Shown: piece by piece, positions 28,449 through 64,000 of the stretch
Layout of the letters: every line of letters starts with the position of its first letter
Position numbering within the stretch: the stretch's first letter is position 1
DNA from: the human T2T-CHM13v2.0 reference genome, Homo sapiens
Reading direction: 5' to 3' (one strand)
NCBI RefSeq assembly: GCF_009914755.1
Contig: NC_060945.1
DNA: 64,000 bases
The notes under the pieces: generated by a model
The model's input: the letters and a program-made list of their open reading frames with translations, nothing else
Told to the model about the DNA's origin: nothing
Database searches by the model: none
Program-made: the position numbers and the translations under genes

Positions 28449-28499
<51 letters not shown>

Positions 28500-35775: not shown

Positions 35776-38009
35776 GTAACATCTCCCAGGTAAGTGGTTC
35801 TACAAAGTAAACTTCCCTTGAGCATCTACACTGTACCAGACATGGTGCTAGGACCCAGGCCACAGGAGGAACAGGACAGATGAGGCCCCTGCCATCCTGG
35901 TGCTCACGTCTGATGAAGAAAGCTAACAGGTCATAAGACCAGGTCAGATGGTGGTGGTAATCAAAGACATTACCAGAGTGAGATGAGCTAGAAAGAAACT
36001 GAAGGAGCTCTTACAAACACAGTGACAGGTGGAGACCCCTCCAAAAGGTGACTTTTGAGCAGAAACCTGAGAAATGTGGAGGGGACTATGGAGAATGACA
36101 AGCCCCTGAAGCAACCCCAGGATTGGGAGGGCAAACCCGGCACCAGGAGGGCAATGGAATGGCCTGACCTGTGCGTCCTTCATGCTTCCTTTCTCAGTGA
36201 TGCACAAACAGAAACATGGGGCAATTTCGTGCAGGGTCCATGGATGAAACAAGAAGCAGCCGCACTGCAGAGCTGGAGTGGGGATAAAATCTGACCCAAC
36301 AGTAAAGCTAGAAGCAGGTGCTGCTTACCACTGACCACAGTGCAGGTCATGAAGCATAACCAGACCATGAAGGCACGTCCAGGGCCAGACCAGCTGGCCG
36401 GGCTGCCAACATCTTAGTAGAGATCCCAGGAGATCAGTTGAGCTGGTTAGGGGGAGAAAAAAAAAAACAGGAAAGCTTCAGAAAATTCCAGAGGACCCAT
36501 GACACTTAACATCAACTTCCCCCAAGTGGGATCTGTTTGTCATTGCTGGTTCTAAAGAGTTGGTTCCACCACCCCCACCTGCCCGTTGCCTAACCAGGGG
36601 AAAACTCAGGGTGGGGTCCACAGAAACAATCCCTCTGGAAGGGGAAAGGGTGTTTCTCATCCAAAACCAAGGGAAAACACCACTCATAAGGAGCAGAGGG
36701 GCCTGAAGGGAGAGACAGGATTCTGCTGCTCATTTGGATATCTGCTTCCCAGCAGGAAAGGGGACCACGCAGGATACAGTGTCTAAGTGGACCCTGTGCT
36801 GTGGGACTAGGGGGGCTGGTGCTGACTCACTGTTGGAGGTGAGCCACTATAGGAGGCTTAGAACCCCTCCCTGCAGCCTCTCCAGTCTAATAAGGGGATG
36901 GTAGTGTGGTCAGTGGGGGCATCCAGATGCAGTCAAAGGGCACAGTGAGTGATGTCTCCTCTGGCCTCCTCTTTCAGCTGCAGATTCTCCGAGTTACTGG
37001 AACAGCTTCTCCATGGCCCCACCAGCCTGGAGGGTGGTGACAGCTCCCAGATGACGCTAACCCCAGGGCCCTGCGCCATCACCCCTGGTTCCCCTTGGCC
37101 CTGCCCACACCTATGTAAACAGCTTTTTCTTAATGACCCTTCAGCCGCTTCGAGGTCCCTGCCAGTACCTGACTGCCACATTCCCCAAAGGGAACAGGCT
37201 CCTCAGCCCAGGAGCTGAGGTTTCTACAGGCACAGAGAAAACACTGTCCCAACTGTTGGAATGGAGTCGGGAGTGGAAAAAAGAACGTTTTTTCTCAATG
37301 CTTAGACTCACCAATTGTTTCATTTTATCACATGAAGGCTGTGTGGCATTTTGAAGTAGAATTAATAATCTACATAATTACAAATTATATTCTTAAAAGA
37401 AGGTGCTCAGTGCCATGCCTGACACATGGTGGAACTCCACGATGAGATGTGTGAGAAGCCAGGGTGCCATGGTTACAGACAAGGACTGCAGGTACAGACT
37501 GCTTGCTTCAAACCTGGACCAGCGGTGTGAATTTTGGCAACTCTCTGTATTGCTCTTTGCCACTGTTTTTTAATCTAACAACTAGAAGTAAAAACAAGGT
37601 TATTGTAAAAATTAAATGAATTAAAGTAAGCAGAGTGCCTACAACACCCCCAGGCACACAGTCAGCACTGAGCATGTTTTTCATTATACTCTTAAAGAGG
37701 TAAGAGTGAGAACACAGGTGCCAGCCATGAGCCTGGGTTTCTCTGGAGAGGCATCAGAGACTCTACTTTTAACATCCTCCATTCATTCATTTGACCCTGG
37801 TAAGGGAGGAGTCTCATGGGATACAAACAAGCATCCACCTTGGGGCCAGACTTCCCATGGTCAAAGTTGAACTCCACCACTGTTCAGCTGGGTGACTTTG
37901 GGCAAGTGACTTCCCCTCTCTGATCCTCATATTCCCTTTTGATAAAAACAGCACAATGGCAGGCCTATGGGGATTGAAGGAGCTGACAGAAAAATGTGTG
38001 CCTTAGTAT

Positions 38010-38400
38010 AATTTTCCTGGAAGTAGATCCTGAGGCAAATATTCAAATACAAAAATTCTATTTGGAGATAACTCTAGGATAGTAATTCGACTGCCAGTTC
38101 TTCCTTAGGGTGCGTATCCCAGGAAACACCAGTAGAGGAGTGGGGAACTGAGACAGGAAAGGAATGCAGCAGTTAAAGGGACCTTCATCAAGAAAGTTTC
38201 CCCTGTGGCAGCCAGGACTCAGCCCTGCCAGGTACATCTGCAGAGACAGCACAGAACATGTGCCTCAGAGTCACCCACCCAAAGCAAGGGAGCTGGGGTA
38301 TTTATCCACCAATACCCACCAGTCACTCCTCAGGGATCCTTCCAAGGGCATGATTCCTCCAGAATGTCCTGCCTGATCTGCAAGTGTCAGACCAGGGGTT
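38010..38400. mobile_element. Old MLT1-family MaLR LTR
   Basis: ggaagtagatcctgaggcaa...atcccaggaaacaccagtagaggagtgggga...ggagctggggtatttat. Confidence 0.55.
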
Positions 38401-39065
38401 GAGGACAGGGACCCTGACAGTACCTCCAGCAATGAGCAGGAACACAGCCTGGTGTGGAGAGTTTCAGTCAGTGATTCCAACTCATACACTTACCCACACA
38501 CCACACTCCAGCCCCAACAATGTGTATATGTACACACACATACATGCATACATGACTGTTACCCACTTTGATCCTGGTGACTCCATGGGATATACAGTAA
38601 GGCAGAAATCAGAGGGAAGAGCAGAATTAAGGGGAGTGAAAATCTTAAGAAGAAAATGCAAATTTAGGCAGAAAATCAAGGGGGAAGAGGAGTGTTCTGG
38701 ACACCAAATGCTGGCTGGGTGGCACCTACTCTACACACACTGTCACTAATTATCCAAGAAGCCTTGTGGGGTAGAAGAAATTCCTCTTAATTTACAGATG
38801 ACAGAAATGTAGTCCAGAAAACTGACTTTACTAATGTCTCAGCAAGCTAGTGGGTGATAGATATGGACTCCCAGATCTTTCTGTCCACAGAGCCTATAAA
38901 TTCTTCCTTGTTAGGCAGGCTGCATACCAGGCCCTGCTTCTGGGCTCTGCTCCTTTTCCTGCTAGGCAATCGTGGCAGAATTGACAGAAATGTTATCCCC
39001 CTTCACCACCTGGAGCAGAGCCAATGAGAGGAGCTGGGGAACAGGCCATGAGGCCCTGCACCCAC

Positions 39066-40024
39066 CATTCAATGTCTTCAGGATTGTGGTCCCTCAGAAC
39101 TCTTGCACCACATGATGGCATCACTCCTGGGTGTCTTCTGAGGTTGCATAGGATTCAGTAGAGGCCAGTGGCTGTGCTGTCATATCCTAAGAGGCAGCCA
39201 CGCAGGCTTGCGTCTCTTGGCTGCTTCAGCACCAGAGGTTGGACAGCGCCCATGCACTGAGGCCCTCGGGAGAATGGGAGGAGGGAAAGGAAGGGCAGAA
39301 TGGAGTGATGTAGTGTCCATCCACCATGTCCCTGGATGGAGAGACCCACACCGGGACCACCGCTGGTACTCATGAAGATGCCAGCCTCCATTTATATGTC
39401 CTCATCTGACAACTCCTTCCCATTTTCATCCTGGAGACAAGACCTCTGAACACATTAGCTCTGAGGGCACCTGAGTGTAACCTGAGACAGTCCCTGAAGA
39501 CTTTTCATCCAAGCAGGATCCCTCCCTTGCCATCTCCAGACCTGCCCCACAAGCTCCCTCCCGGGTCTCCTGGCTCTTGTTCACTCCTTCCAGGCAGCCT
39601 TCTACAGTCATCTCTAAAATATATCTGACTGTCCCTCCTTTATCCAGCACCTTCTATGGCTCCCCAGAGCCCTCCAGCTCAAGTTCAAGTTCTTTGATCA
39701 GACATTTGATCTCAAGCTGCATTCTACCTCCCAAATTAAGATACTGGAGAAGCCACCTTGCCCAGCACAAGTGCATCACTGAAGTCCCAAGTCTTGAACG
39801 TGGCCTTGGTCTTGAGGAAGTCATGAACACCCTGGCTAGTGAGGGTGCAGGGCTGCTCCAGGATGATGGTGTCTAAAGTTGTGCACAAGGTCACAGGCCC
39901 TGCAGAAGCATCACCCCTCAGGAATGGGTAGTACAGGAAGTCCATGCACAGGCAGATCTGCTGGTGCCATTACACTATGAGGGCACTGAGCTCAAATAGG
40001 GTGGCAATATATTCACTGGGATTC
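39066..40024 (-). pseudogene. Unprocessed CYP4F pseudogene fragment: exon 7 (40024-39757), exon 8 (39430-39364), exon 9 (39186-39066)
   Basis: NPSEYIATLFELSALIV*WHQQICLCMDFLYY...TLTSQGVHDFLKTKATFKTWDFSDALVLGK / DENGKELSDEDI*MEAGIFM / GYDSTATGLY*ILCNL..HP..PEDIEW; AG acceptors intact; CYP4F29P/30P/34P/35P-type locus. Confidence 0.9.
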
Positions 40025-40396
40025 CTGCAAGGTGAGGCTGGGGAGAGGAAGCAGCTCCATAACACATATGAAACCCTGGAAACCCTTCTCAGCCAAAATC
40101 TCAGGACCACATTACACCCAGAAATGGGTGCCCTCTGAGCACAATTGTCTCTCTGTCTCCCACTCTGAGCTCCCTCATGGCCCCACATGCCCCAGCCTGG
40201 CCCAGAGCTTGAAGCCCAGTAACTGTTCAGTCCATGGTGTTGACTGCTCCCTGGGACAGGAGAGCGCTTGGTGGCTCTGGGACTCCTCCTGTGGAACCCC
40301 TGCATCTGCCTTGGGACCTCCCAATTCCCATGGGAAGCCCCCATGGCTCTGGATTGCCCCACCTGCCCTGGGATCCTCCAGCCCCATAAGACTTAC

Positions 40397-42238
40397 TTGA
40401 TGCCTTAGACCTCCCAGAACATGACATGTTTCTCAGAATGTGGCTGATGTCCAGGGCCATCTGTGGATGTTTCTGGGGACTTCTAGCTGATTTCCTTTAT
40501 GGTCTGTAGGGCACGGCCAAGAGGAGAAACCAGCCCAACCTCAGAATGGACAAAAGGCTCACTGCCCCAATGGCAACCACCAAACTGTCAGCAGTGCTTC
40601 TGAAAGGAAAGGTTTCATTCTGCAGAAAGCTCCTTGTTTGGCTTCTTTCTGATGCCAGGGAGGGGTACCAATCCCTGCATACCTGTGGTGCCTACGTTAC
40701 CATCTCTGCCTAGGATGTGCAATGGGCCCCTGCTCTCACTGCGGGGTTGACGTTACCTCCAGCTGGAGACCTGGGCTCCTGACACCGCCTGGCCTCTTTG
40801 TCCTTCTCTGGATGAGGGTGGAAAGGCTGTACCTGGTATTTCCCTAGGTCCTTGGTTTCCACCTTCTAAACATCCAGCAGGAGTGACCATGCCCAGCACC
40901 ACACCTGAAGTGGGACTCCCTTGTGGAGCAGCCAAGAAATCTACAGATGGAAGAATGCTCTGGTGAGATAAGCCACAGGGGTCCCTGGGGAGGATCTGGG
41001 GCCAGAGGATTCTGGAGGTTTCCAGCCTTGGGCTCTGTGGGAACTATGATCTGGAGATATTTTTTTCATTTAGGTCACCAAGAGACAACCCCTAACCCCT
41101 GAGCAAGGCATGGTCAAGCTCTGGCATGAGATTCTCTTCCAGCAATGCAATGCTTGCAGAGACAGGTACAAAAGCTGGTGACCAGGCCTGCTGTCCCCCA
41201 GGTAAGGACAGTGTGCTACCCACCCTCTGAGAGGTGGTGCCAGTCCACAGCACTGGGTGCCTGTACCCCTGGCTCTGCAGATACCGGTCATGGAAGTCCC
41301 ATGGAGGTCCTCCCCTCTCCACATTACCTTCTTGCTGCTTCTAGACTTCTTCTAGTCATTAAGCATGTTGAGCCATTTTTCTGTGCATCCGATCTGACAT
41401 TTTTGCTCTCAGATGAAACACGACAAAGTAAGCTGAGCCACCAGGATTCCTGGAGGGAACCTTGGATGCTTGGTCTTGGGCTCCAGGGCACTGATGGGAG
41501 GGAGCCAGGGAAGAACAAACACTGGGGCTGAGCCCCTATGACCCAATGGGAACTTGTGGCCTGTCCTTATGGCCCCAAGACACCCTGTCCTCAGGCCACA
41601 GGCACCACGGGCTTTGGTCAGATCCCAGCCTCCCAGTAGTGTCCCGGCACTAGTGGGTGCTGACCCCTGAGCCACAACCACAGTTCTGGGTTTGGGGTAT
41701 GGTAAAACCACCCCAGGGACAGAGTTCTGGGGCCGGGTTTGGGAGGAACCAAGGCACCTCCCAGGGATGGTGTGTCACTCCTACTTGCCATGAAATGTGC
41801 ACAAAGGCTGTCCTCCTGCCCATCCCATCCTGCTGGACAGGATGGAGGAAGTGAGGGAACAGGCAGCGTGGACAGCTAGGGTGCAGGGAGAGGCAGGTGC
41901 ATGCTGGGAGGTCAGGCCCTGTGAGGGCTGTGGGGGCATCAGGTGGAGTGGGCTTCAGGTACACCCTCAGTGCAATGGGCAGGTCTCAGGCCAGGCTTCC
42001 TGGACCCCGGCTGGGTGATGTGGTCACTCCCTGGGGGACTACTGTCAGACCCTGGCCACGCACCCTGGGCAGCACTGTCCCATCCCAGGACTGGATTTTC
42101 TGAGTCCTCAGACAGGAAAACACTGCCCAGGCCTGACAGACTGGGAAGACCTCTTAAGTCCTCCATCCCTAGACCAGCCTCCCAACAGCAGGGACAGTCT
42201 CCTACCTTTACCTTCAGGGCACTGACTGATCCATCTCA
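40397..42238 (-). pseudogene. Four fossil exons of a TBC1D3/TBC1D26/USP6(NL)-family RabGAP N-terminus (42238-42206, 41405-41328, 40940-40833, 40503-40397)
   Basis: AG...GT-flanked exons of 33, 78, 108 and 107 nt translating (some with frameshifts) EMD..SALKVK / QKCQIGCTEKWLNMLND*KKSRSSKK / ISWLLHKGVPLQVWCWAWSLLLDV*KVETKDLGKYQ / TIKEIS*KSPE..MALDISHILRN(HVMFW)..GIK, comparable to TBC1D26/TBC1D3 exons (recalled sizes 40/81/108/110). Confidence 0.8.
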
Positions 42239-42800
42239 CTCTAAGGCAACCAAGGCAGAGCTGAGGACCTGTGCCAGGCTGGAAGCCAGTCCCCTCCCTA
42301 AATAGGCCTTAGGGAAGCCTCATCCCTGTCCCAGTGCACTGCAAGTTTCAGCCCAGGAGACACATAGGGAAGGGAGGATGGGGCCTCCCCACTGGCTGAC
42401 CCTGGAAAAGCGGGACCTGGGAGAAGAGGGAGTGCAGGGCTGGCAGGGGATTCTCCAGGCCCATGGAGAGCTCAGTCTGCACCATGGGGCTGCCCCTCCT
42501 GGGCTGGAGGCTGTGCCCTCTGCAGGATCTGAGGAAGTGCAGTCCTGAGATGGGACAGTGCTACCCAGGTTGGGTAGCCAGAGCCTGACAATAGTCCCCC
42601 AGCAAATGACCACATCACCCAGCCAGGGTCCAGGGAGCCTGGGCCAAGACCTGCCCAGTGCACTGACGGTGCACCTGGAGCCCAGTCCACCTGATGCCCC
42701 AACAGCCCTCACTGGGTCTGACCTCCCAGCATGCACATGTCTCTCCCTGAAACTCAGCTGCCCACCCTGCCTGTTCCCTGGCCTCCTCCATCCTGTGCAG
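41832..42800. repeat. ~270-bp diverged inverted repeat (arms ~41832-42098 and ~42534-42800)
   Basis: caggatggaggaagtgagggaacaggcag...gcactgtcccatcccaggactg on + matches the reverse complement of 42534-42800. Confidence 0.9.
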
Positions 42801-42989
42801 CCCATAGACTGTGACCATCTCTCTGGCCACTCTGGTACTTCCTTTACTTTTGTCCTGTCAGAATCCCTGAGCAAGATCTCCCAGGTCCATCCAAACACCT
42901 GCTTTGTCCACTTTTGACTGGGCCATTGAACACCACTGGGCCATCCCAGCTGTCCACAGGGTCCTCGATAACATGCATTTCTCCTGACA

Positions 42990-43867
42990 TCTCCCTGCAG
43001 TGCTCAGCAGCCCCCACTGACCAGGTCCCTGCTGACCAGATCCAGCATATCAGATCCTCCCTGACCACACCCTCACTGACTAGACCCCCATCACCAGGCC
43101 TCACTAACTAGATTCCCGCTGACAGGCCCACAATGACCAGGACTCCACTGATGAGGACCTTACTGATAAGTCCTCACTTGTAAGGCCTCACTGACCAGGT
43201 CCTTACTGACAAGGCCTCGCTGATCAGGTTCCACCGATAATGACCCCATTGCCTGGTCCCACAGATGAAGCCCCACTGAGCAGGCCTCCAGGGAATAGGC
43301 TGCCAGTGACCAGGCTCCTACTAACCACGCCTGAGGTGACCAGATGCCCCTGACTGGGACTCTAATGAGTATGCCCCACTGAACAGGCATGCACTGCTCA
43401 GATCCCCGCTGACCTGGTCACCCCGTAGACCAGTGCTACAAAAGCCACCACTGATCAAGTCCTCTCTGACCAGGCCCCCACTGATTAGGTTCCACTGAGC
43501 AGCCTGCCCTGACCAGGGCCCCACTGACAAGCGCCTCTGCTGACTAGGTCCCATGTGGCCAGGCCTCCACTGAATAACACCCCTTGACCTGGTCACCAGT
43601 AACCCAGCCCAATCAGACAAGGCCACAACTAAGCCCCAGCTGACAAGGTCTCCACTGACCAAGTCCCACAGCCCAGGTTGGCATTGACCAGACACCAAAC
43701 ATTTGTCTGCCACTAGGAACCCACTCACCAAGAGCTGCACTACTAGATCCCTCTAATGAGACCCTCTCTAGGCAGACACCTGCTGACCACCCCCCACTAA
43801 ATAGGCCTCACTGACAAAGTCCCAACTGACTAGGTCCCCTGAGCAGGCCTACACTGATCAGGCCCCT
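42990..43867. repeat. Degenerate ~15-bp minisatellite, consensus ~AGGCCCCACTGACC(A)
   Basis: Recurrent cactgacc(a/t)gg core with ~15-nt spacing. Confidence 0.8.
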
Positions 43868-46800
43868 CCTAACCATATCAGAAGGCCAAGCGGCAATGAG
43901 ATGTTTCATATGGCAGGAGTAGGAGCAAGACAGAGAGAGGAAAGAGGTGTGACATCCTGTTAGACAACCAGATCACATAAGAACTCACCATCAGGACATC
44001 GGCATCAAGAAAACTAACCAATGGTGAAGGATCCTCCACCCACACCACCGCCCACTGTTTCCAGGCAGAAGCCTCCTGCAGAAGCAGAACCTCTTAGGAA
44101 ACATCCACTATGGCAGTGCAGAAGGAAAATATAGGCTTTGAGCCCCCACACAGGAGGCCACCTTCCTCCAGACTCCAGGTTCATAAGCCCACCAACAGCT
44201 CACACCCTCAGTATGGAAAAGCTACAGGCACTCGACACCAACCCAGCCCATGAGAGCAGCCATGGGGGCAACACCCTGCAAAGCCAGAGATGCACTGTCC
44301 TAGTAGAGGTTTCCCATGAGCCTCTGCCTCTGCAGCAAGTTACTCCCACCCTCCCACCACCCTACTGACGACCTACTCCTCCCCACACTACTCCTCCTTT
44401 TCCTTCCACCCCAACCCCCTCCCATCCAAGATTAAATCACCTCCCACCTGGCACACCTCCGACATTAAGGATGACACGTGAGTTTTACAGGGACACACAG
44501 CCAACCCATATTATTCTGACCCTGATACCCCAGAACCTCATGTCCTTCTCACAGAGCAAAACACAATCATGCCTTTTCAAAAGTTTCCAAAAGTCTTAAC
44601 TCATTCCAAATGTAAAAATTTCAAAGTCTCATCTGAGACAAGGTTACAATCCCTTCTGCCAATGAGTCCCTGAATTTAAAAGGGATTTCTTTTCCTTCAA
44701 GGTACAATAGGCATTGGGTAAGTTTTCTCAATCCAAAGGGAAGAAATTCCCCAGAAAAATAACACAAATGCAAGTCCAAACCCCAGCAGGACAGTATTCA
44801 TTCAATACAGTATCTCACAGCTCTGTAATCATCAAGAGAACTCACTATCATGCAGACAGCATTAAGGAGACAGTGTTAAACAATTTATGAAGAATCCAAT
44901 CCCCACCCTCATCTTTCACACCCATCCACAAAATAATCTCCACCATTCTCCCCACACCCCTACCTCCAACACCCACTCTTCGCCATGATTAAATCACCTC
45001 CCACCAGGCCCCACCTTTAACTTTCACCATCACAATTCCATGAGAGTATTGGTAGGGACAAAAAGTCAAATCATATTATTCTGACATGGGTCCCCCCCAA
45101 TCTCATATCCTTGTCACACTACAAAATACAATGATGCCTTCTGTACAGTCCCCCAAATTCTTAACTCATTCCAGCATTTACTGAAATGCCCAAAGCCCAG
45201 AGTCTCATCTGAGGCAAGTCTACAGTCCCTTCTGCTCATGAGCCACTGAATTACATATAAAGCAAGTTTACTACTTCCAAGGTGCAATGATTGTACAGGC
45301 GTTGGGTAAGCATTCCCAGCCAAAAGGAAAAAAATTGCCAGAAAGAAGCACAAAAAACAGATGGGGCTTACAGACCCCATGCAAGTCAAAAACCCAGCAG
45401 GCCAGTCATTGAATCCTACAGCTCCCAAATCATATTTTCTGAATCTGTATCCCACATCTGGAGCACAGGGGTGGATAGCTGGGCTCCCAAGGCCTTGGGC
45501 AGCTCAGCATCTGTGACTGTGCAGGGTCTATCCCCCACAGGTGACCTCATGGGCTGGGCTGGTGTTGAGTGCCTGTGGCTTTTCCACACTGAGGGTGCCA
45601 GCAGTTGGCGGGTCTATGAATCTGGGGTCTGGAAAATGGTGCATTCCTGTGTGGGCGCTACAACCCTATATGTTCCTTCTGTACTGCCCTAGTAAATGTT
45701 TCCCATGAGGCTCTGCCTCTTGGAAAAGCTGCTGTCTCAACACCCAGGTTTTCCCATACATACTCTGGAGTCTAGACAAAGGCTCCCAAGCCTCTAGTTT
45801 TGTGCTCTGTGCACCTGCTGGCTTAGTACTATGTGGAAGCCACCAAGGTTTGAAGCTTGCACCCCTGAAGCAGTGATGCAAGCTGTACCTGTGCATCTTT
45901 CAGCCGTGACTGGAGCTGGAGCTGGAGCTGGAGCTGCAGGGATGCAGGCAGCAGTGTCCTGAGGATGAACACAGCAACGCGACCATGGGACTCACCCAGG
46001 AAAGCATTCTTGGGTCCTAGAACTCGGGGCCTGTGACAGCAAGCTCTGCTGCAAAGGTCTCTGAAATGGCTTCAAGACCTTTTAACCTTGTCTTAGCTAT
46101 TAGCACTGGGCTCCATTTTATGCAAATTTCTGAAGCCTTCTTGAATTTTCCCACTGAAAATCAGCTTTGCTTTTTGACCACTTGGCCAGGCTGCAAATTT
46201 TCCAAACTTTTAAGTCCTGCTTCTCATTTAAATATAACTTTCAACTTGAGGTCATTTATTCAGTCACAGAGAAGACCACAGGCTGTTCAAAACAGACAAG
46301 ACACCTCTTGCGCTTTGCTGCCTACTTCATTTCACCAGATATACCCTAAATTATCACTCTCAAGTTCAAAGTTTCAGAGGTCTCCAGGGCAGGAACACCA
46401 TCCAGCCAAGTTCTTTGCTAAGGCAAAACAAAAGTAACCTTAACTCCTGTTCCCAGTAAGTTGCTCATTTTCATCTGAGACCTTCTAAGTCTGGCCTTCA
46501 CTGTCCATCCTTCAGTCACTCTTTTAATTATAGCTATGTAACAAGTCTCTATGGTCACCGTTTTAATTTAACACATCTCTACAATAGTCCAAATTTTCCC
46601 TCATCTTTCTGTCTTCTTCCAAGCCCCCCAAACTGTGCAGCATCTGGTCGTTACCCACGTCTGAACCTGCTTCTACATTTTCAGCTACCGTTGTGGCAGC
46701 CTGGCAATGTGGTAAAAGAAGAAAAGTCCATTTTCAGGGGGAAAATTCAAGAAGCCTTCAGATATTTGCATATAGAAGAAGCCAAATGCTAATAGTAAAA

Positions 46801-49800
46801 AAAAAAAAGATGAAGAAACCTTGAGGGCATTTCATAGCTCCACTTTACAGTACAAATTTTCTGTAGTATTATTTTTAAAAGAGGTTTAACTGGCTCATGT
46901 TTCTGCAGGCTGTAAAGGCAGCAAGTGGCTTCTGCTTCTGGGAGGACTCAGGAAGCCTCCCAATCATACCAAAAGGCCAAGTGACAATGAGATGTTCCAT
47001 ATGGCAGGAGTAAGAAGAAGATACAGAGAAGAAAGAGGTGCCACACCCGGTTATACAACCAGATCTCATGAGAACTCACTATCAGAAGATCAGCCTCAGG
47101 AAGATTAACCAATGGTGAAGGATCCGCCCGCACCACCCCTCGCTGTTTCCAGGCGGAAGCCTCCTGCAGAGGCAGAACCTCTTGGAGAACCTCTACCAGC
47201 GCAGTGCAGAAGGAAAATATGAGCTTGTAGCCCCCACACAGGAGGCCACCATCCTCCAGACAGGAGATTGATAAACCCACCAACAGCTTGCACTCTCTGC
47301 GTGGAAAAGCTACAGGCACTCAACACCAGCCCAGCCCATGAGAGCAGCCATGGGGGCTACACCCTGCAAAGCCACAGGTGCACTGCCCTAGTAGAGACTT
47401 TCCATGAGCCTCTGCCTCTGCAGCAGGCTACTTCCCCCTCCTACTACCCACCACCCTATCACCACCCTACTAACAACGTACTCCTCACCCTACCAACCCC
47501 TTTTCCTTCCACCCCCGGCCCCCGAACATCCATGATTAAATCACCTCCAGCCAGGCCCCACCTCCAATATTAAGGATTACAATTCACATGAGTTTTGGTA
47601 AAGAAACACAGCCAAATCATATTATTCTGACCCTGATCCCCACAGTCTCATGTCCTTCTCACAGAGAAAAATATATTCATGCCTTTTCAAAAGTTTCCAG
47701 AAGTCTTAACTCATTCCAACATTAACTCAAATGTAAAAAAATCAACATCTCATCTGAGACAAGTCTACAGTACCTTTTGCCTATGAGTCCCTGAATTTAA
47801 AAGGATGTTCTTTTCTTTCAAGGTACAATAATGGTACAGGCTTTGGGTAAGATTTTTCAATCCAAAGGGAAGAAATTTCCCAGGAAGAAAACACAAATGG
47901 GACCACAGGCCCAATACAAGTCCAAAACCCAGAAGGCCAGTATCCATTCAATCTTACAGCTCCAAAATCATGAAGAGAACTCACTATCACAAGGACAGCA
48001 ATAAGGAGAGTGTTTAATCATTTGTGAAGCATCCGTCCCCCACCCCCAATTTTCACTGCTCACCCGCACCATAAATCCCCCAGTCTCCCTAAGCCCCATC
48101 TTCCAACCCCCACCCTCCACCGTGATTAAATCACCTTCCTCCAGGCCCCACCTTTAACATTCCGATGACAATTCCACATGAGTTTTGGTAGAGACACAGA
48201 GCTGAATTTTATTATTCTGTCCCTGGCTCCCCAAATCTCATGTCCTTCTCACATTGCAAAATACAATGATGCCTTCCCTACAGTCCCCCAAAATCTTATA
48301 TCATTACAGTATTTATACAAATGTTGAAAGCTTAAAGTCTCATCTGACACAAGGCTACAGTTTCTTAGGCCCATGAGCCTCTGAAATATAACGCAAGTTA
48401 ACTACTTCCAAGGTACAATGCTTGTACAGGCATTGGGTAAGCATTCCCAGCCAAAAGGAAGAACGTTGCCGGAAAAAAACAAAACACAGATAGGACTTAC
48501 CGGCCCCATGAAACTACAAACCCAGAAGGCCAGTCATTCCATCCTACAGTTCCAAAATCACCCTTTTTGAAACCTTGTCCCACATCCAGGGCACAGGGGT
48601 GTGAGGGCTGGGCTTCCAAGGCCTTGGGCAGCTTGGCACCTGTGGCTTTGCAGGGTTTATGCCCCACAGCTGGCCTCATGGGCTCGGCTGGTGTTGAGTG
48701 CCTGTGACTTTTCCTCACTGAGAATACAAGTTGTTGGGGGGTCTATGAATCTGGGGTCTGCATGATGGTGGCCTCCAGTGTGGGGGCTCCAACCCCATGT
48801 TTTCCTTCTGCACTGCCCTAGTAGAAGTTTCATATAAGGCTCTGCCTTTTTGGGGTGCTTTTGCCTGGACACCCAGGCATTTCCATACATCTTCCAAAAT
48901 CTATAGAGAGGTTCCGAAGCCTCTAGTCTCATGCTCCGTCCGCCAGTGGCTTAACACTATGAGGAATTTACCAAGGCTTCTAGCCAGCACCCTCTGTAGC
49001 AGTGACCCAAGCTGTAGCTGTGCATCTTTCAATCATGGCTGGAGCTGGAGCTGGAGCTGGAGATGGAGCTGGAGATGGAGCTGCAGGGATGCAGGCAGCA
49101 GTGTCCTGAGGCTCCACACAGAGGGGGTCATGGAACTGGCCCAGGAAACTGTTCTTCTCTCCTAGGCCCCAGGGCCTGTAACAACAAGGGCTGCTGCAAA
49201 GGTCTCTGAAATGCCTTCAAGGCCTTTTCCCTATTGTCTTGTCTATTAGCACTGGGCTCCTTTTCATGCAAGTTTCCGAAGCCTTCCTCAATTTTCCCCC
49301 TGAAAATCAGCTTTTCTTTTGGACCACATGGCCAGGCCGCAAATTTTCCAAACTTTTGAGTTCTGTTTCTCATGTAATGTAAGAGTTGGGACTCATTTAA
49401 TGTAAGTCTCATCCAGAGGTCATTTCCTCCATCCCACATAAGAGCACAGGCTGTTCAATGGAAACAGGACAACTCTTGAGCTTTGCTGCTCAGTTCATTC
49501 CACCAGATACTCAGTAAATCATCACCCTCAAGTTCAAAGTTTCACAGATCTCCAGGGCGAGGTCACCGTGCAGCCACGTTCTTTGCTAAGGAAACAAAAG
49601 TAACTTTGACTTCTGTTCCCAGTAAGTGCTTCATTTTCATCTGAGACCTTCTAAGTCGGGCTTTCACTGACCATTTTCCTGTGAGCCTTCTGATCACAAA
49701 TGTTTAACAATTCTTTACAAAGATCCAAACTTTCATTCATCTTCTTGTCTTCGAAGCCCTCCAAACTCTTCCGACCTCTGTATGCTACTCCCTTCTGAAC

Positions 49801-52800
49801 CTGCTTCTACATTATCACTATCTTTGCCACAGCCTGGCAATGTGGTAAAGGAAAACAAGTCCATTTTCAGGGGGAAAATTCATGAAGCCTTCACATACTT
49901 GAATGAAAAGAAGCTGAGTGCTGATTGCCACGACAATGACATTTAATAGTTCCACTTTGCACTACTAATTTTCTCTATGATCATAAAGAAAAGAGGTTTA
50001 ATTGGCTCATGATTCTGCAGGCTGTAAGGAAACACAGTGGCTTCTGAATCTGGGAGGACTCAGGATGCCTCCCAATCATACCAGAATGTCCAGGGGCAAT
50101 GAGATGATTCATGTGGCAGGAGTAGGCACAAGACAGAGAGGAAAGAGGGCCACACCCTATTATACAACCAAATCTTATGTGAACTCACTATTACAAGGTC
50201 AGCATCATGAAGATGGTGCTTAAACATTGATGAAGGAACAACCACCCACACCCAACTCCCACTGTTTCCAAACAGAAGCCTGCTGCACAGGCAGAGCCTC
50301 TTGGAAAACCTGTACTAGGGCAGTGTGGAAGGAAAATATGAGCTTGGAGCCCCCACAGAGATGGCCACCACCCTCCAGACCCCAGATTCACAGACCCATC
50401 AGCAGCTCACACCCTCTGTGGAAAAGCTACAGGTTTTTCCAAACCTCAACACCAACCCAGCCCATGAAAGCATCTGCAGGGGCTCAACCCTGCAAAGCCA
50501 CAGGTGGATTGCCCTAGTAGAGGTTTTCCATGAGGCTTTGCCTCAGCAGCAGGCTACTCCCCCTTCCTACTACCCCCAACCCTCCCACCATTCTACTGCC
50601 AGCCTACTCCTCCCCACCCCAACCAACCATTTTGTGATACCCTACCTTGTTTTAACCTGATCGACTCTCCCTTAGCTGAGGGAGCCAGGCAGACTCCATC
50701 TTGGCTGTTTCACTTGCAGCCCCTTACACACATCCCTTCCTCAAGGACATAACTTGTGCAAGCTGACTCCCAGCACATCAACGAATGCAATTACTGACAA
50801 GATACTGTGGCAAGCTATATCCACAGTTCCCAGGAATTCACCCCGTTGATGGTACCTAAAACCCCCGCATTTCTGTCCAGTTGATAGCACCCAAAGCCCC
50901 CACCTCTATCACCTTTTGATGGATTTAAAGTCCCTGCACCTGGAACTGTTTGTTTTCCTGTAGCCATTTACCTTTTTAACTTTTTTGCCTGTTTTGCTTC
51001 TGTAAGATTGCTTCAACGAGGCCTCCCCTCCCCTTTCTAAACCAAAGTATAAAAGAAAATCTAGCCCCTTCTTCCGGGCCGAGAGAATTTTGAGCACTAG
51101 CGCTCTCTCAGTCGCTGGCAATAAAGGTCTCCTGAAGTCGTCTCATAGTGTGGCGTTTCTCTACCACTCGCTTGGTTACAACCCTTTTCCTTCCACCCCC
51201 CAACCCACCTCCAATCCATGATTAAATCATCGCCCCCAGGCCCCACTTTCAACATTTGGAATTACAATTCCACCTGAATTTTTTTAGGGACTCACAGCCA
51301 AACCATATTATTCTTACCCTGATATCCCAGAATCTCATGTCCTTATCACAGAGCAAAATACAATCATGCCTTTTCAAAAGTTCCAATAGCCTTAACTAAT
51401 TCCAAGTGTAAAAAGTTCAAAGTCTCATCTGAGACAAGGCTACTGCCCCTTCTGCCTATGAGTCCCTGAATTTAAAAGAGATTTCTTTTCTTTCAAGGTA
51501 CAATGATGGTAGAGGTATTGTGTAAGCTTTCTCAATCCAAAGGGAAGAAATTTCCCAGAAAAATAACACAAATGGGCCCACAGGCCCAGTGCAAGTCCAA
51601 AACCCAGCAGGACAGTATTCACTCAATCTCACAGCTCAAAAATCATTAAGAGAACTCATCGTCATGCGGAAAGCATTAAGGAGACAGTGTTTACCCATTT
51701 GTGAAGAATCTGTTCCCCCGCCCTCATCTTTCACTCCCATCCACAAAATAATCTCTCCCGTTCTCCCCACACCCCTACCTCCAACACCCACTCTTCTCCA
51801 TGATTAAATCACCTCCCACCAGTTCCCACCTTTAACATTCCCCCCTAAAATTCCACATGAATATTGGTAGAGACACAAATTCAAATCATATCATTCTGGC
51901 TCTTGCTCCCCAAATCTTGTATCCTTGTCACACTGCAAAATACATTGATGACTTCTTTACTGTCCCCCAAAGACTTAACTCATTCCAGCATTTACTAAAA
52001 TGTACAAGGACTTACAGACCCCATGCAAGTCAAAAACCCAGCAGGCCAGTCATTGAATCCTACAGCTCCAAATCATCTTTTCTGAATGGACATCTCTCAT
52101 CCGATCACAGGAGTGTCATGGCTGGGCTCCCAAGGCCTTGGGCAGCTCTGCACCTGTGGCTGTGCACGGTCTATCCCCCACAGCTGCCCTCATGGGCTGG
52201 GCTGGTGTTGAGTGCCTGTAGCTTTTCCAAACTAAGGTTGGAAAAGCCAGCTGTTGGTGGGTCTATGAATCTGGGGTCTGGAGAATGGTGCCTCCATATT
52301 TAGGGACCCCAGCCCTATATTATCCTTCTGTACTGCCCTAGTAAAGGTTTCCCATGAGGCTCTGCCTCTTGGAAAAGCTTCTACCTGAAAACCCAGGTTT
52401 TTCCGTAGATACTCTGGAGTCTAGACAAAGGCTCCCAAGCCTCTAGTTTTGTTCTCTGTGCACCTGCTGGCTTAACACTATGTGGAAGCCACCAAGGCTT
52501 GAAGCTTACACCCCTGAAGCGTGATGCAAGCTGTACCTGTGCATCTTTCAGCCATGGCTGGAACTAGAGCTGCAGGGATGCAGGCAGCAGTGTCTTGAGA
52601 CTGCACATAGAGGGGGGTCATGGAACTGGCCTAGGAAACCATTCTTCTCTCCGAGGCCCCAGGGCCTATGATAGCAAGGGCTGCTGCAAAGGTTTCTGAA
52701 ATGGCTTCAAGGCCTTTTCCCTATTGTCTTGGCTATTAGCACTGGGCTCCTTTTCATGCAAATTTCTAAAGCCTTCCTCAGTTTTCCCCTGAAAATCAGC

Positions 52801-55800
52801 TTTTCTTTTTGACCATTTGGCCAGGCTGCAAATTTTTGAGTTCTGTTTCTCATTTAATATAAGAGTTGGGACTCATTTAATGTAAGATCCATCCAGATGT
52901 CATTTTCTCGGTCACACATAAGGGCACAGGCTGTTTGATACAGACAGGACACCCCTTGAGCTTTGCTGTCCAGAAGTTCATTCCAACAGATACGCAGTAA
53001 GTCATCACCCACAAGTTCAAAGTTTCACAGATCTCCAGGGCAGTGTCACTGTGCATCCACGTTCTTTGCTACAGCAAAACAAAAGGCACCTTGGCTCCTG
53101 TTTGCAGTAAGTTCCTCATTTTCATCTGAGAGCTTCTCAATCTGATCCTTACCGTCTATTTTCCTATGAGTCTTCTGATCACAAGTATTTAACAACTTTT
53201 TACAAAGATCCAAACTTTCCCTCATCTCCCTGTCTTTGAAGTCCTCCAAACTCTCCAGAACTCCATCTGCTACCCCCTTCTGAACCTGCTTCTACATTTT
53301 CAGCTATCTTTGTCACAGTCTGGCAGTGTGGTAAAGGAAGACAAGCCCATTTTCTTGGGAAAAATTCAAGGGGCTTCAGATACTTGAATGAAAAGAAGCT
53401 GAGTGCTGATTGCCAAGACATTAGGGAGAAGGCCTTGAAGACATTTAATAGATCCACTTTGCAGTAATAATTTTCTCCATAATCATAAAGAAAAGAGGTT
53501 TAATAGGTTAATGATTCTGCAGGCTGTAAGGAAGCATAGTGGCTTCTGCACCTGACAGGACTCAGGAAGCTTCCCAATCATACCAGAATGTCAAGGGGCA
53601 AGGAGATGTCTCATATGGGAAGAGTAGGAGCATGACAGAGAAAGGAAACAGGTGTCATGTCCCATTATACAAGCAGATCTCATGAGAACTCACTATCACA
53701 AGGTCAGCATCAAGAAGATGGTGCTTAAACATTGGTGAAGGATCCGCCCCACACACCCAACTCTCACTGTTTCTAGGCAGAAGCCTCCTACAGATGCAGA
53801 GCCTCTTGGAAAACCTCTATTATGGAAGTGCAGAAAGAAAATATGGGTTTGGAGTCCCCACACAGGTGGCCACCAAACTCCAGATCCCGGATTCATAGAC
53901 CCACTAGCAACTCACGCACTTAGTGTGGTAAAGCTACAGGCCCTCAATACCAGCCCACCCCACGAGAACAGCTGAGGGGCTAAAACCTGCAAAGCCACAG
54001 GTGCACTGCCCTAGTAGAGGTTTTCCACGAGGCTTTGCCTCTGCAGCAGGCTACTCCCCCTTCCTACTACCCCCCACCCTCCCACCACCCTACTGCCAAC
54101 CCACTCCTCCCAATCCTACCCATCCCTTTTACCTTCCACCGCCACCAACTTCCTGTCCATAATTAAGTCACTTGCTTCAACATTAGGGATTACAATTCCA
54201 CATGAGTTTCATAGGGACACACAGGAAAACCATATAATTCTGACCCTGATATTCCAGAATCTCATGTCCTTATCACAGAGCAAAATACCATCATGACCTC
54301 TCAAAAGTTTGCAAAAGTCTTAACTCATTCCAAATGTAAAAAATTCAGTCTCATCTGAGACAAGGCCACAGTCCCTTCTGTCTATGAGTCCCTGAATTTA
54401 AAACGGAGTTCTTTTCTTTCAAGGTACAATGATGGTAGAGACATTGTGTAAGCTTTCTCAGTCCAAAGGGAAGAAATTTCCCAGAAAAATAACACAAATG
54501 GGCCTACAGGCCCAATGCAAGTCCAAAACCCAGCGGGACAGTATTCACTCAGTCTCTCAGCTCCAAAATCATCAAGAGAACTCACTATCATGTGAACAGC
54601 ATTAAGGAGAGCGTGTTTATCCATTTGTGAAACATCCGCCCCCCACCCTCATCTTTCACTCCCACCCACAAAAAAATCTCTTCTATTCTCCCCACTCCCT
54701 TACCTCCAACCCCCATGCTTCTCCATGATTAAATCCCCTCCCACCAGGCCCCATTTTTAACATTCCCCATTATAATTCCACATGATTTTGGTAGGGATGC
54801 AGAGTCAAATCATATTATTCTGACCCTGGCCCCCGTATCTCATGTTCTTCTCACACTGCAAAATACCATGATGCCTTCTCTACAGTTTCCCAATCTCTTA
54901 ACTCATTCCAGCATTTACTGAAATGTCCAAAGCCCAAAGTCTCTTCTGAGACAAGGCTGGGGTCTCTTCTGCCCCTGAGCCTCTGAAATACAAAGTAAGT
55001 TAACTACTACCAAAGTACAGTGATTGTACACACATTGGGTAAGTATTCCCAGCCAAAAGGAAGAAATTAGCCAGAAAGAAGAACAAAACACAGATGGGAC
55101 TTACAAACCCCATAGGAGTCAAAAATCCAACAGCCAGTCATTGAATCCTACAGTTCCAAACCATTTTTTTTGAATCCAGATCCCACATTCAGAGCACAAG
55201 GGTATGAGGCCTGGGCTCCCAAGGCCTTGGGCAGCTCTGCACCTGTGAAGTTGCAGGGTCTAACCTCCACAGTTGTCCTCATGGGCTGGGCTGATGTTGA
55301 ATACCTATAGGTTTTCCACAATGAGGGTGCAAGCTGCTAGTAAGTCTATGAATCTGGTGTTTGCAGAATGGTGCCTCCCTGTATTGGGGTTCCAACCCTA
55401 TATTTTCCTTCTGTACTGCCCTAGTAAAGGAGGCTCTGCCTCTTGGAAAAATTTCGACCTGGACACCCAACTTTTTCCATACATACTCTGGAGTCCAGAC
55501 AAAGGATCCCCAGCCTCCAGTTTTGTGCTCTGAGCACCTGCTGGCTTAACACTATGTGGAAGCCACCAAGGCTTGCAGTTTGCACCCTCGGAAGCAGTGA
55601 CCCAGGCTGTACCTGTGCATCTTTCAACCATGGCTGGAGCTGGAGCTTCAGGAATCCAGCCAGCAGTGTCCTGAGGATGGACATAGCAGCGGGGTCATGG
55701 GGCTGGAGAAGGAAACCATTCTTTTCTCCCAGGCCTCAGGGCCTGTGATAGCAAGGGCTGCTGAAAAAGTCTCTGAAATGCCTTCAAGGCCTTTTTAACA

Positions 55801-61800: not shown

Positions 61801-64000
61801 ATGAATCTGGGGTCTGCATGATGCTGGCATCCAGTGTGGGTGCCCCAACCCCATATTTTCCTTCTGCAATGCCCTAGTAGAGGTTTCCCAGGAGTCTCTG
61901 CTTTTTTGGCAGCCTTCTGTCTGGACACCAAGACACTTTCATACATCTTCCGAAATCTGTATGAAGGCTCCAAAGCCTCTGGGCTAGTGCTCTGTGCACT
62001 CGCTAGCTTAAAACTATATGGAAGCCATGAAGCCTTACAGCCTGTACCCTCTGAAGCAGTGATGCAATCTGTACCTGTGCATCTTTCAGCCAAGGTCGGT
62101 GCAGGAGCTGGGGCAGCCGGGTTTCAGGCAGCAGTGTCCTGAGGCTGCACACAGCAGCAGGGTCATGGGGCTGGCCCAGGAAACCATTCTTCTCTAATAG
62201 GCCCCAGGGACTGTGACAGCAAGGGCTGCTGCAAACATCTCTGAAATGCCTCCAAGGCTTTTTCCCCCAGTGTCTTGGCTATTAGCACTGGCCTCCATTT
62301 TATGCAAGTTTCTGGAGCCTTCATGAATTTTCCCCCTGAAAATCAGCTTTTCTTTTTAACCACTTGGCCAGGCTGCGGATATTCCAAACTTTTGAGCTCT
62401 GCTTGTCATTTAAATATAAGTTCCAACTTGAGGTCATTTCCTCGGTCACACATAACCTCGGTCACACATGAAAGCACAGGCTGTTTGATGCAGACATGCC
62501 CCCACCCTTGTGCTATGCTGCCTAGAAGTTCTTTCCACCAGATATGCACTAAATCTTCACCCTAGAGTTCAAAATTTCACAGATCTTGAGGGCAAGGTCG
62601 CCCTGCAGCCATGTTCTTTGCTACAGCAAAACAAAAGCTAACCTTGGCTCCCGTTCCCAGTAAGATCCTCATTTTCATCTGAGACCTTGTAAGCCTGGCC
62701 TTCACTGTCCATCCTTCTGCCAGCCTTTTAATCACAACTATTTAACAAGTGCCTACAATGGTCCAAATTTCCCTTCATCTCCCTGCCTTCTTTCAAGATC
62801 TCCAAACTCTCCAACCTCTGGCTGTTACCCACTTCTGAACCTGCTTTACATTTTCAGCTATCTTTGTTGCAGCCTGGCAATGCAGAAGAAAAAGAAGTCC
62901 ATTTTCAGGGGGAAAACTTCAGGAAGCCTTCAGATATTTGCATTAAAAAGAAGTCCAGTGCTAATAGCCAAGAAGATGGGGAAATGTCATTGAAGATATT
63001 TCATAGCTCCACTTCGCAGTACTTTATTTTCTGCATGATCATAACGAAAAGGGGTTTAATTGGCTCATGGTTCTGCAGGCTGTAAAGAAAGCATAGTGAC
63101 TTCTGCTTCTGGGAGGACTCAGGAAGCCTCCCAATCATACCAGTAGGAAAACAGCAATGAAATGTTTCATACAGCAGGAGTAGGAGCAAGGCTGAGAGAG
63201 GAAAGTGGTGCCACACCGTCCTATAACCAGATCTCATGAGAACTCACTATCACTAGGTCAGCATCAAGAAGATGGTGCTTAAACATTGGTGAAGGATCCG
63301 CCCCCCAACACAGCTCCACCCCCTACCGTTCCAGACAGAAGCCTGCTGCAGAGGCAGAGGCTCTTGGAAATCCTGTACTGTGGCAGTGCAGAAGGAAAAT
63401 AAGGGCTTTGAGTGACTATGCAGGAGGCCACCAGCCTCTAGACCCCAGATTCATAGACCTACCAACAGTTCACACCCTCAGTATGGAAAAGTGATAGGCA
63501 CTCAACACCAGCCAAGCCTATGAGAGCAGCCTTGTGGGCTAAAGCCTGCAAAGCCACAGGCGCACTGCCCTGGTAGAGGTTTTCCAAGAGCCGCTGTCTC
63601 TGCAGCAGGCTACACCCCCTTCCTACTACCCACCACCCTCCCACCACCCTACAGCCAGCCTACTCTTCCCCACCCTACCCACCCCTTTTTTCTTCCACCC
63701 CTACCCCTCCCATCCATGATTAAATAATCTCCCACCAGACCCCAACTCCAACATTTGGGATTACAATTCCACATGAGTTTTTCCAGGGGCACACAGCCAA
63801 ATCATATTATGCTGACCTTGACCCCACCAAATCTCATATCCTTCTCACAGAATAAAATAAAATCGTGTCTTTTCAAAGTTTCCAAAAGCCTTAACTCATT
63901 CCCACATTAACTCAAATGTAAAAAGTTCAAAGTCTCATCTGAGACAAGGCTACAATCTCTTCTGCCTATGAGTCCCTGAAGTTAAAAGGGTGTTCGTTTC
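43868..64000. repeat. MST (MaLR) LTR/internal-derived macrosatellite, ~2.9-3.5 kb units, about 6.5 units, continuing past the window end
   Basis: Marker aaaagaggtt (diverged to aaaaggggtt in the last) recurs at ~46877, 49989, 53491, 56356, 59775, 63047; units are made of MST LTR and MST-int pieces in mixed orientation. Confidence 0.92.
50633..51183 (+). mobile_element. Solo ERV1 LTR (LTR6A/B, HERV-S71-like) inserted in array unit 3
   Basis: TGTGATACCCTACCTTGTTTTAACCTGA start, TATAAAA at ~51048, AATAAA at ~51120, ends GGTTACAAC; imperfect 4-bp TSD (a/c)ttt; array sequence resumes on both sides. Confidence 0.75.

What the first reader, a model, noticed from the sequence alone, without database searches (positions are those of the whole stretch)
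44061..46834. Three built-in fold-backs per unit: candidate dsRNA/small-RNA-producing array
Seen in unit 1 and repeated in the other complete units: (A) ~230-bp arms 44061-44289 vs ~45510-45745 (unit 2: 47149-47381 vs 48637-48868); (B) ~130-bp arms 46062-46192 vs 46698-46834; (C) a ~50-bp stem with ~165-nt loop, e.g. 56659-56709 (agcc..aggcagagcctcttggaaaacctctactagggcagtgca) vs 56873-56923 (tgcactgccctggtagagcttttccatgaggctctgcctctgcagcaggct). Known: MaLR LTRs act as germline/embryonic promoters, and hairpin transcripts feed endo-siRNA and ADAR pathways. Inference: transcription of either strand yields MST-sense and antisense RNA, so the array could be a MaLR-silencing small-RNA locus or a dsRNA immune trigger.
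Basis: partly seen in the sequence, partly recalled or inferred. Interest (0 to 1): 0.7.

Follow-up and report, generated by a model that had tools for sequence, protein, structure and literature searches.

The report
Retroelement megasatellite yielding oocyte piRNAs
This is a known human tandem array built from a rearranged MaLR retroelement; its fold-backs are real but show no sign of being kept paired, and a published egg-cell table lists a weak one-strand piRNA cluster over it, so the inverted pieces likely matter, if at all, as a source of anti-retroelement piRNAs and not as double-stranded RNA.

Summary
The three fold-backs are real, at the stated coordinates, and recur in all 55 complete monomers tested. 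The array is the chr21q11 MaLR "LTR array" megasatellite of Warburton 2008: their primers match, with 16 monomers and a 6-monomer higher-order repeat. The arms are inverted pieces of MaLR internal sequence; 8 of 8 dispersed copies have no such inversion. Arms within a unit are no more alike than arms from different units (A 0.748 vs 0.752, B 0.745 vs 0.743, C 0.797 vs 0.793), and there is no excess of compensatory change. A and B would still fold stably if transcribed; C competes with A.

New link: a published human oocyte piRNA table lists a minus-strand cluster that converts to window 37,462-98,794, covering the whole array. Four paralogous arrays are listed on the equivalent strand. Three papers report no endo-siRNA in human oocytes. 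So "small-RNA locus" is supported, but as single-stranded piRNA, not Dicer siRNA. That strand is about 88% MaLR-sense, and the inverted arms are its only antisense part. Output is low (row 723 of 1,000; 0-54 RPM). Silencing function is inferred, not shown.

The parts
43865..64000 (.). MaLR (MSTA/THE1) LTR-array megasatellite, monomers 1-6 and the start of 7 (3.1-3.5 kb each); continues to about window-equivalent 97,400 (16 monomers, ~53.5 kb; 6-monomer HOR of ~19.3 kb)
   Evidence: PMC2588610 section 8
37462..64000 (-). Human oocyte piRNA cluster chr21:15217476-15278808|- (hg19), converted to window 37,462-98,794: the whole array plus 6.4 kb into CYP4F29P
   Evidence: PMC13111593 supplementary top-1000 table, row 723; offset from the CYP4F29P hg19 span, which reproduces both gene ends
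44057..44293 (+). Unit 1 arm A-left: inverted MaLR-internal fragment inside the LTR; antisense to MaLR on a minus-strand transcript
44291..44345 (-). Unit 1 arm C-right: ~55-nt snap-back copy of the first part of A-left
44411..45354 (-). Internal direct duplication (44411-44768 and 44966-45354, 69%): 3' end of the internal region plus the start of the LTR, ~570-590 nt apart
45507..45743 (-). Unit 1 arm A-right: the same internal segment in its native place in the MaLR body
46055..46194 (-). Unit 1 arm B-left: native internal segment
46697..46858 (+). Unit 1 arm B-right: inverted internal fragment near the start of the internal region; antisense on a minus-strand transcript
46863..47106 (-). 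3' part of the MaLR LTR between monomers; a TATA-like word occurs in 46 of 55 monomers and a polyA-like word in 28 of 55 (motifs recalled, function untested); overlaps RefSeq silencer 47002-47202
   Evidence: supplied annotation
47145..47435 (.). Unit 2 A-left (47145-47381) and C-right (47379-47435)
48636..49970 (.). Unit 2 A-right (48636-48872), B-left (49200-49340), B-right (49830-49970)
50633..51180 (.). ~550-nt insertion with TG...CA ends in monomer 3, recurring in monomers 9 and 15; fits the once-per-HOR LTR6A of Warburton 2008 (name from the paper, not from a repeat library)
56652..56930 (.). Unit 5 stem C (56652-56709 with 56873-56930, 86%)
41832..42801 (.). Separate GC-rich inverted repeat in the flank (41832-42112 with 42519-42801, 85%, duplex about -510 kcal/mol), inside the cluster's read-through part

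Best explanation
The array is the known MaLR LTR-array megasatellite, its fold-backs are likely passive relics of inversions in the founder monomer, and a published oocyte table lists a weak minus-strand piRNA cluster over it, in which the inverted arms would supply the only antisense MaLR guides. Steps: (1) Shown: one MaLR element (LTR plus internal region) carries two inverted internal fragments (A-left with its snap-back C, and B-right) and a 590-nt direct duplication; dispersed copies lack these. (2) Shown for structure, inferred for process: that monomer was amplified head to tail, then as a 6-monomer unit, then spread by segmental duplication. (3) Shown: the arms have since diverged independently, like the rest of the monomer. 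(4) Taken from published tables: uniquely mapped piRNAs come from the minus strand of this array and the equivalent strand of four paralogues. (5) Inferred: a long single-stranded precursor, from the LTRs or from upstream read-through, is cut into PIWI-bound piRNAs, about 88% MaLR-sense and 12% antisense. (6) Inferred and weakest: the antisense share makes a small contribution to cleaving array and dispersed MST/THE1 transcripts.
For: Identity with the published family: primer 1A matches 6 of 6 complete window monomers, 0 expected; 16 monomers, ~53.5 kb and the HOR match Table 3. Origin of arms: 0 of 8 dispersed elements have an internal inverted match; both A arms map to one internal segment and share a ~38-nt deletion against dispersed copy L029, with gaps in both arms against 4 of 5 copies aligned. 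No co-evolution: permutation P = 0.96 (A), 0.31 (B), 0.11 (C) over 8 monomer types; double changes 5.0 vs 8.8, 3.1 vs 3.7, 2.1 vs 1.6; duplex energies within equal cross; arms conserved 0.79-0.85 vs non-arm 0.79-0.84; arms match dispersed copies at 0.67-0.81, about as well as each other. piRNA: chr21 row; chr18, chr9q22, chr2q11, chr4p11 rows in two studies; three 30-nt clusters with essentially no opposite-strand reads; 30-nt MSTA-int piRNAs are 11-20% antisense in three oocytes (family-wide, not locus-resolved). Targets exist: one hand-picked 24-mer of A-left has 1,568 genomic matches at <=2 mismatches.
Against: The chr21 cluster is weak (0-54 RPM, zero in 4 of 23 oocytes) and absent from the 2019 os-piRNA and 30-nt lists; the top 20 clusters make 91.7% of unique piRNAs. 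'Unique' was judged on hg19, which lacks several T2T paralogues, so some reads may come from other arrays. No read sequences were seen, so production from the inverted arms is not shown. Only 13% (A-left) and 4% (B-right) of 1U 20-mers match any of 8 dispersed copies at <=2 mismatches. The chr4 cluster has many plus-strand short piRNAs. No top-1000 row begins at the 9p13 array starts searched, and no chr13 array row was among 15 of 21 chr13 rows seen. C-right is somewhat more conserved (0.88), though three non-arm windows match it. With 8 types the covariation test would miss weak selection. MaLRs are held to be long immobile (recalled), so the benefit of silencing is unclear.
Confidence: 0.68

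Rival explanations
1. Pure genomic fossil: the array is neutral, and the piRNAs are incidental spill-over from read-through of upstream minus-strand pseudogenes (SNX18P13, LOC110091776, ANKRD20A11P) or misassigned reads from stronger paralogues. No effect on MaLR control.
For: Low RPM; all arm tests neutral; the cluster starts ~1.4 kb beyond the array, inside SNX18P13 (supplied annotation); 14,603 clusters were called genome-wide; read-through piRNA precursors are a described class (PMC11615739 passages).
Against: Five arrays on four chromosomes plus chr21 appear as clusters whose edges track the array; the chr9q22 array is row 108 and rises at GV/MII. This rival differs from the best explanation only in steps 5-6.
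Confidence: 0.2
2. One reading: hairpin transcripts are diced into endo-siRNAs that silence MaLRs, and the stems are kept for that purpose.
For: A and B form in whole-unit folds on both strands; in one two-unit fold each A arm paired with its own unit; an LTR-to-LTR transcript would hold all arms of one unit (inference).
Against: No covariation; median perfect run 18 bp (A), 14 (B), 13 (C); endo-siRNAs undetected in human oocytes in three papers; 30-nt clusters are single-stranded; no Rfam match in 36,000-64,000.
Confidence: 0.04
3. Incidental dsRNA: when de-repressed (DUX4 expression, demethylation), array transcripts fold like inverted Alus, are ADAR-edited and may add to innate sensing. No selection is needed.
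For: Stable duplexes; WC+GU runs of 30 bp or more in arm A of 17 of 55 monomers on the minus strand and 8 of 55 on the plus; a stronger flank hairpin; DUX4 activates MaLRs and DUX4-induced dsRNA is modestly enriched for LTR elements (passages).
Against: No locus-level dsRNA or editing data seen; 0 mentions of chr21 or chr18 in the dsRNA preprint's main text; B and C never reach a 30-bp run; only 1 match to the recalled canonical DUX4 words in the array. Can coexist with the best explanation.
Confidence: 0.08

Closest known systems
MaLR 'LTR array' megasatellite, 21q11.2 (Warburton et al. 2008, PMC2588610)
   Same: It is this array: ~3.5-kb monomers of MSTA/THE1 LTR and internal fragments in both orientations, 16 units, 6-monomer HOR marked by an LTR insertion, same primers.
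   Different: The passages and section read do not describe the fold-backs as such, test them, or mention any RNA; 'piRNA' occurs 0 times in that paper.
Human oocyte piRNA clusters (PIWIL3 short piRNAs and 30-nt piRNAs; PMC6662892, PMC13111593)
   Same: One-strand clusters of several to tens of kb, rich in LTR elements; this array and its paralogues are rows in those tables.
   Different: The top clusters are described as mixtures of insertions biased to antisense ERV; this is a tandem amplification of one element read mostly in sense, with ~12% built-in antisense. 'MaLR' and 'THE1' occur 0 times in either main text.
Mouse oocyte endo-siRNA loci from inverted repeats
   Same: Retroelement-derived inverted repeats in a germline transcript.
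   Different: Depend on the mouse-specific Dicer-O isoform; endo-siRNAs were undetected in human oocytes; arms here are ~75% identical.
Inverted-Alu dsRNA (ADAR substrates)
   Same: Oppositely oriented repeat fragments of 140-240 nt within 0.2-1.5 kb, pairing at 75-80% with no selection needed.
   Different: Fixed in a founder and multiplied by tandem amplification; editing not shown here.

Membership tests
MaLR LTR-array megasatellite (Warburton 2008) | ~3.5-kb tandem monomers of MaLR LTR and internal fragments in both orientations | tested here: met
   Spacing 3,078-3,504 nt; both orientations against dispersed elements
MaLR LTR-array megasatellite (Warburton 2008) | Published conserved primer sites once per monomer | tested here: met
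   1A: 6 matches in the window; 1B: 7 plus-strand matches; 0 expected
MaLR LTR-array megasatellite (Warburton 2008) | 21q array of 16 units, 53.8 kb, 6-monomer HOR | tested here: met
   16 anchors, ~53.5 kb, 92-93% identity at ~19.3-19.6 kb offset
MaLR LTR-array megasatellite (Warburton 2008) | LTR6A insertion once per HOR | tested here: inconclusive
   A ~550-nt TG...CA insert sits in monomers 3, 9, 15; its family name could not be checked without a repeat library
piRNA cluster | Clustered, uniquely mapped small RNAs on one strand in germ cells | tested here: met
   Published row converts onto the array; mapping was to hg19 and not repeated here
piRNA cluster | PIWI binding, 1U/10A bias and piRNA length at this locus | not testable with these tools
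   Read-level files were too large to open; chr9q22, chr2q11 and one more chr9 row passed the 30-nt cluster criteria of PMC6662892; chr21 did not appear there
piRNA cluster | Antisense bias toward the targeted transposon | tested here: not met
   The cluster strand is MaLR-sense except A-left and B-right, ~380-400 of ~3,200 nt
Endo-siRNA hairpin locus | Long stem kept by selection or conversion (covariation, within-unit excess identity) | tested here: not met
Endo-siRNA hairpin locus | 21-23-nt Dicer products with 2-nt 3' overhangs | not testable with these tools
   No reads available; the class was undetected in human oocytes
ADAR/MDA5-type endogenous dsRNA | Thermodynamically stable long duplex | tested here: met
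   A 177-198 bp and B 86-108 bp in unit folds, interrupted by mismatches
ADAR/MDA5-type endogenous dsRNA | Editing or dsRNA-antibody enrichment in cells | not testable with these tools
   No locus-level data seen

The most novel reading that the evidence does not exclude
The LTR arrays are a primate family of self-priming germline piRNA clusters. One LTR-driven strand carries both the MaLR sense target and, through the inverted arms, its antisense guide, so ping-pong partners both map to the same strand and escape standard opposite-strand tests. Their tandem amplification, at about the age of the dispersed MST copies, was favoured as a defence against that family, and array copy number, which varies on the acrocentrics, sets the dose of anti-MaLR piRNA.
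Probability: 0.1. Interest if true: 0.78.

Novelty: new variant of a known kind. Interest (0 to 1): 0.42.

Why it matters
The repeat and the piRNA rows are each published, but seven searches of the paper library found no paper linking them; subscription papers and several supplements were not visible. If the link holds, a megasatellite known since 2008 only as DNA has an RNA output in human oocytes. It would also show a route to a piRNA cluster by inversion plus tandem amplification of the element itself. It gives a cheap test on existing data: same-strand ping-pong between arms. The negative result is useful too, since these stable predicted hairpins carry no sign of selection.

Tried and rejected
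Selected hairpins: rejected by permutation, double-change and energy tests. An apparent G-U bias in stem A (161 minus vs 114 plus, P = 0.005) fell to 94 vs 80, P = 0.32, once columns that differ between the arm families were removed. Fold-backs as an intrinsic MaLR trait: 0 of 8 dispersed copies. C-right as a specially conserved site: 0.88-0.90, matched by three non-arm windows of 101. Known RNA family: none. CpG-island promoter at either end: CpG o/e at most 0.30. Co-evolving flank hairpins: left 0.859 within vs 0.857 cross, 6 loci; right about 0.90 both ways in 4 loci after dropping one mislocated arm. T2T composite-repeat preprint: 0 mentions of MST or MaLR in the main text. Testis cluster list of PMC11615739: Data S2 has no chr21 rows, Data S1 too large. 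A whole-monomer genome search was not scored. Macrosatellite review and two CYP4F29P papers gave nothing on function. Earlier scan findings were not available.
Full report
1. Observation. The fold-backs are present as described. E-values are 1.6e-51, 4e-21 and 5.5e-13. All five arms were found in 16 of 16 chr21q monomers and in 55 of 62 monomers sampled; 6 were cut by stretch ends and 1 partial monomer was dropped. C reuses the first ~55 nt of A-left, so only two stems can form at once. Whole-unit folds give A (177-198 bp) and B (86-108 bp), not C, on both strands of units 1 and 2. C alone folds well (z -6.5).

2. What the array is. It is the 21q11.2 member of the MaLR LTR-array megasatellite of Warburton et al. 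2008 (PMC2588610; abstract, passages and section 8 read). That paper describes ~3.5-kb monomers of MSTA and THE-1 fragments in both orientations, 16 units and 53.8 kb on 21q, and a 6-monomer higher-order repeat. Its primer 1A matches once in each of 6 complete window monomers and 1B matches 7 times on the plus strand, with none expected by chance. The T2T array runs from 43,865 to about 97,400 in window-equivalent coordinates, with 16 monomers and 92-93% identity at a ~19.3-19.6 kb offset. A ~550-nt insert recurs in monomers 3, 9 and 15. Primer 1A has 163 genomic matches at <=1 mismatch; the 100 listed lie on chromosomes 1, 2, 4, 9, 13, 14, 18, 20, 21 and 22.

3. Where the arms come from. Eight dispersed MaLR elements, picked by a shared motif, have no internal inverted match. 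Against them the monomer is one element on the minus strand, colinear over ~1.7 kb, with three changes: an inverted internal fragment (A-left) plus a snap-back (C-right) inside the LTR, a ~590-nt direct duplication, and a second inverted fragment (B-right) near the start of the internal region. Both A arms lack the same ~38 nt relative to copy L029, and both show a gap against 4 of 5 copies aligned. This suggests A-left was copied from the same element or a close sibling; a subfamily trait is not excluded. The arm families differ in their commonest letter at 25 of 237 (A), 12 of 107 (B) and 4 of 56 (C) columns, so the arms probably already differed when amplification began (inference). Monomer types are 77-82% identical, like the paired LTRs of dispersed copies (about 77-82%), so the first amplification is roughly as old as those copies.

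4. Are the stems maintained? No sign of it. Over 8 monomer types, within-unit versus cross-type arm identity is 0.748 vs 0.752 (A, P 0.96), 0.745 vs 0.743 (B, P 0.31), 0.797 vs 0.793 (C, P 0.11). Double changes are 5.0 vs 8.8, 3.1 vs 3.7 and 2.1 vs 1.6. Duplex energies are equal within and across units, for example A minus strand -322 vs -317 kcal/mol, against -543 for a perfect duplex. A G-U bias seen at first vanished after removing pseudo-replicated columns. Arms are no more conserved than spacers (0.79-0.85 vs 0.79-0.84; C-right 0.88, equalled by three non-arm windows). Arms match dispersed copies at 0.67-0.81. The test has only 8 types, so weak selection could be missed. Median perfect runs are 18, 14 and 13 bp; runs of 30 bp or more with G-U occur only in A, in 17 (minus) and 8 (plus) of 55 monomers.

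5. Small RNAs. The top-1000 human oocyte piRNA cluster table of PMC13111593 (hg19, uniquely mapped reads; passages, section 12 and table rows seen) has chr21:15217476-15278808 on the minus strand, row 723, 0-54 RPM, zero in 4 of 23 oocytes. CYP4F29P is 15215454-15220685 in hg19 (table row of PMC4891794) and 35,440-40,671 here; one offset fits both ends and puts the cluster at 37,462-98,794. That is the whole array, 1.4 kb upstream and 6.4 kb downstream. The same table has chr18:14253072-14340499 (+, row 440), chr9:99891157-99917884 (-, row 108), chr2:95423649-95453489 (-, row 275) and chr4:49211658-49235979 (-, row 739). PMC6662892 (passages, section 10, rows of Data 5, 7 and 10) lists hg38 clusters at the same four places. 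Its two chr18 rows span 79.0 kb and fit both ends of Warburton's 79.5-kb array with one 10-kb offset. The build offsets for chr2, chr4 and chr9 are recalled, not from a call. Three further chr9 rows (40.30, 42.93, 64.44 Mb) fit by size and region only and are not counted. With T2T orientations, 5 of 5 clusters lie on the strand equal to the window's minus strand. Against: chr21q is in neither 2019 list; no chr13q array row was seen (15 of 21 rows in the 2026 table); none began at the 9p13 starts searched; chr4 has many plus-strand short reads; hg19 lacks several paralogues, so unique assignment may be wrong. Human oocytes lack detectable endo-siRNA in passages of three papers.

6. Mechanism. 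The cluster strand is MaLR-sense except A-left and B-right, about 12% of each monomer. Family-wide, 30-nt MSTA-int piRNAs are 11-20% antisense in three oocytes, which fits but is not locus-resolved; short piRNAs are mixed. Guides from the inverted arms could pair with the native arm of the same or other monomers: 45% (A) and 25% (B) of 1U 20-mers match some monomer at <=2 mismatches, but only 15% and 8% match their own unit, and 13% and 4% match any of 8 dispersed copies. One hand-picked A-left 24-mer has 1,568 genomic matches at <=2 mismatches, more than three sites in each of ~163 monomers could supply. The promoter is unknown: LTR pieces keep TATA-like words in 46 of 55 monomers and polyA-like words in 28 of 55 (recalled motifs), while upstream minus-strand pseudogenes offer read-through (supplied annotation; class described in PMC11615739 passages). 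Steps shown: anatomy, amplification pattern, neutral arm divergence. Taken from tables: one-strand piRNA output. Inferred: precursor, arm-derived guides, any silencing.

7. Novelty and verdict. The array is known and the cluster rows are published. No paper joining them turned up in seven searches. Unseen material may bear on this: piRNA sequence files of PMC6662892, Data S1 of PMC11615739, files 13-14 of PMC13111593, preprint supplements and subscription papers. The dsRNA preprint (10.1101/734541) and PMC3836709 were seen as passages only. Verdict: real feature, ordinary origin, dsRNA/siRNA reading unsupported, piRNA reading supported at low output. Interest 0.42.

Noticed in passing
window 41832-42112 and 42519-42801: GC-rich inverted repeat, 85%, duplex about -510 kcal/mol, stronger than any stem in the array; kept in 6 of 6 paralogous flanks; arms not co-evolving (0.859 vs 0.857). 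Best local candidate for dsRNA or editing.
   Followed up: partly
L004 4252-4410 and 4809-4967 (window-equivalent 98,252-98,967): Second flank inverted repeat, 159 nt at 91%, in SNX18P13, at the upstream edge of the piRNA cluster; shared by chr4, chr18 and chr21p paralogues.
   Followed up: partly
window 43015-43860: Degenerate 15/29-nt tandem repeat just left of the array; a related tract lies at window-equivalent 100,830-101,390 on the other side.
   Followed up: no
window 35440-40671: CYP4F29P lies 3.2 kb downstream of the array on the cluster strand, and the cluster runs into it; the chr18 cluster also extends about 6 kb past its array. Array-driven transcription of CYP4F pseudogenes is possible.
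   Followed up: no
window-equivalent 72,987 (L001, near 8,987): A methylation signal tied to skeletal muscle mass (hg19 chr21:15,253,001, PMC4891794) falls inside the array, though the paper labels it by CYP4F29P.
   Followed up: no
array LTR pieces, e.g. window 47531-47541: The palindrome-like word TGATTAAATCA occurs 17 times in the chr21q array and 0 times in 8 dispersed copies, which carry TGATCCAATCA 7 times; possible altered homeodomain site (motif link recalled).
   Followed up: partly
window 61197-61336: A monomer-6-specific inverted 140-nt piece matching the LTR/internal junction (87% to 62965-63102): a fourth, younger fold-back.
   Followed up: no
window 28037-28700: Separate MST-type solo LTR split by an unrelated insert with a TG tract.
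   Followed up: no
hg38 chr21:6,075,216-6,093,225 (PMC6662892 Data 7): An 18-kb plus-strand short-piRNA cluster on 21p that may be a short-arm LTR array; not checked.
   Followed up: no
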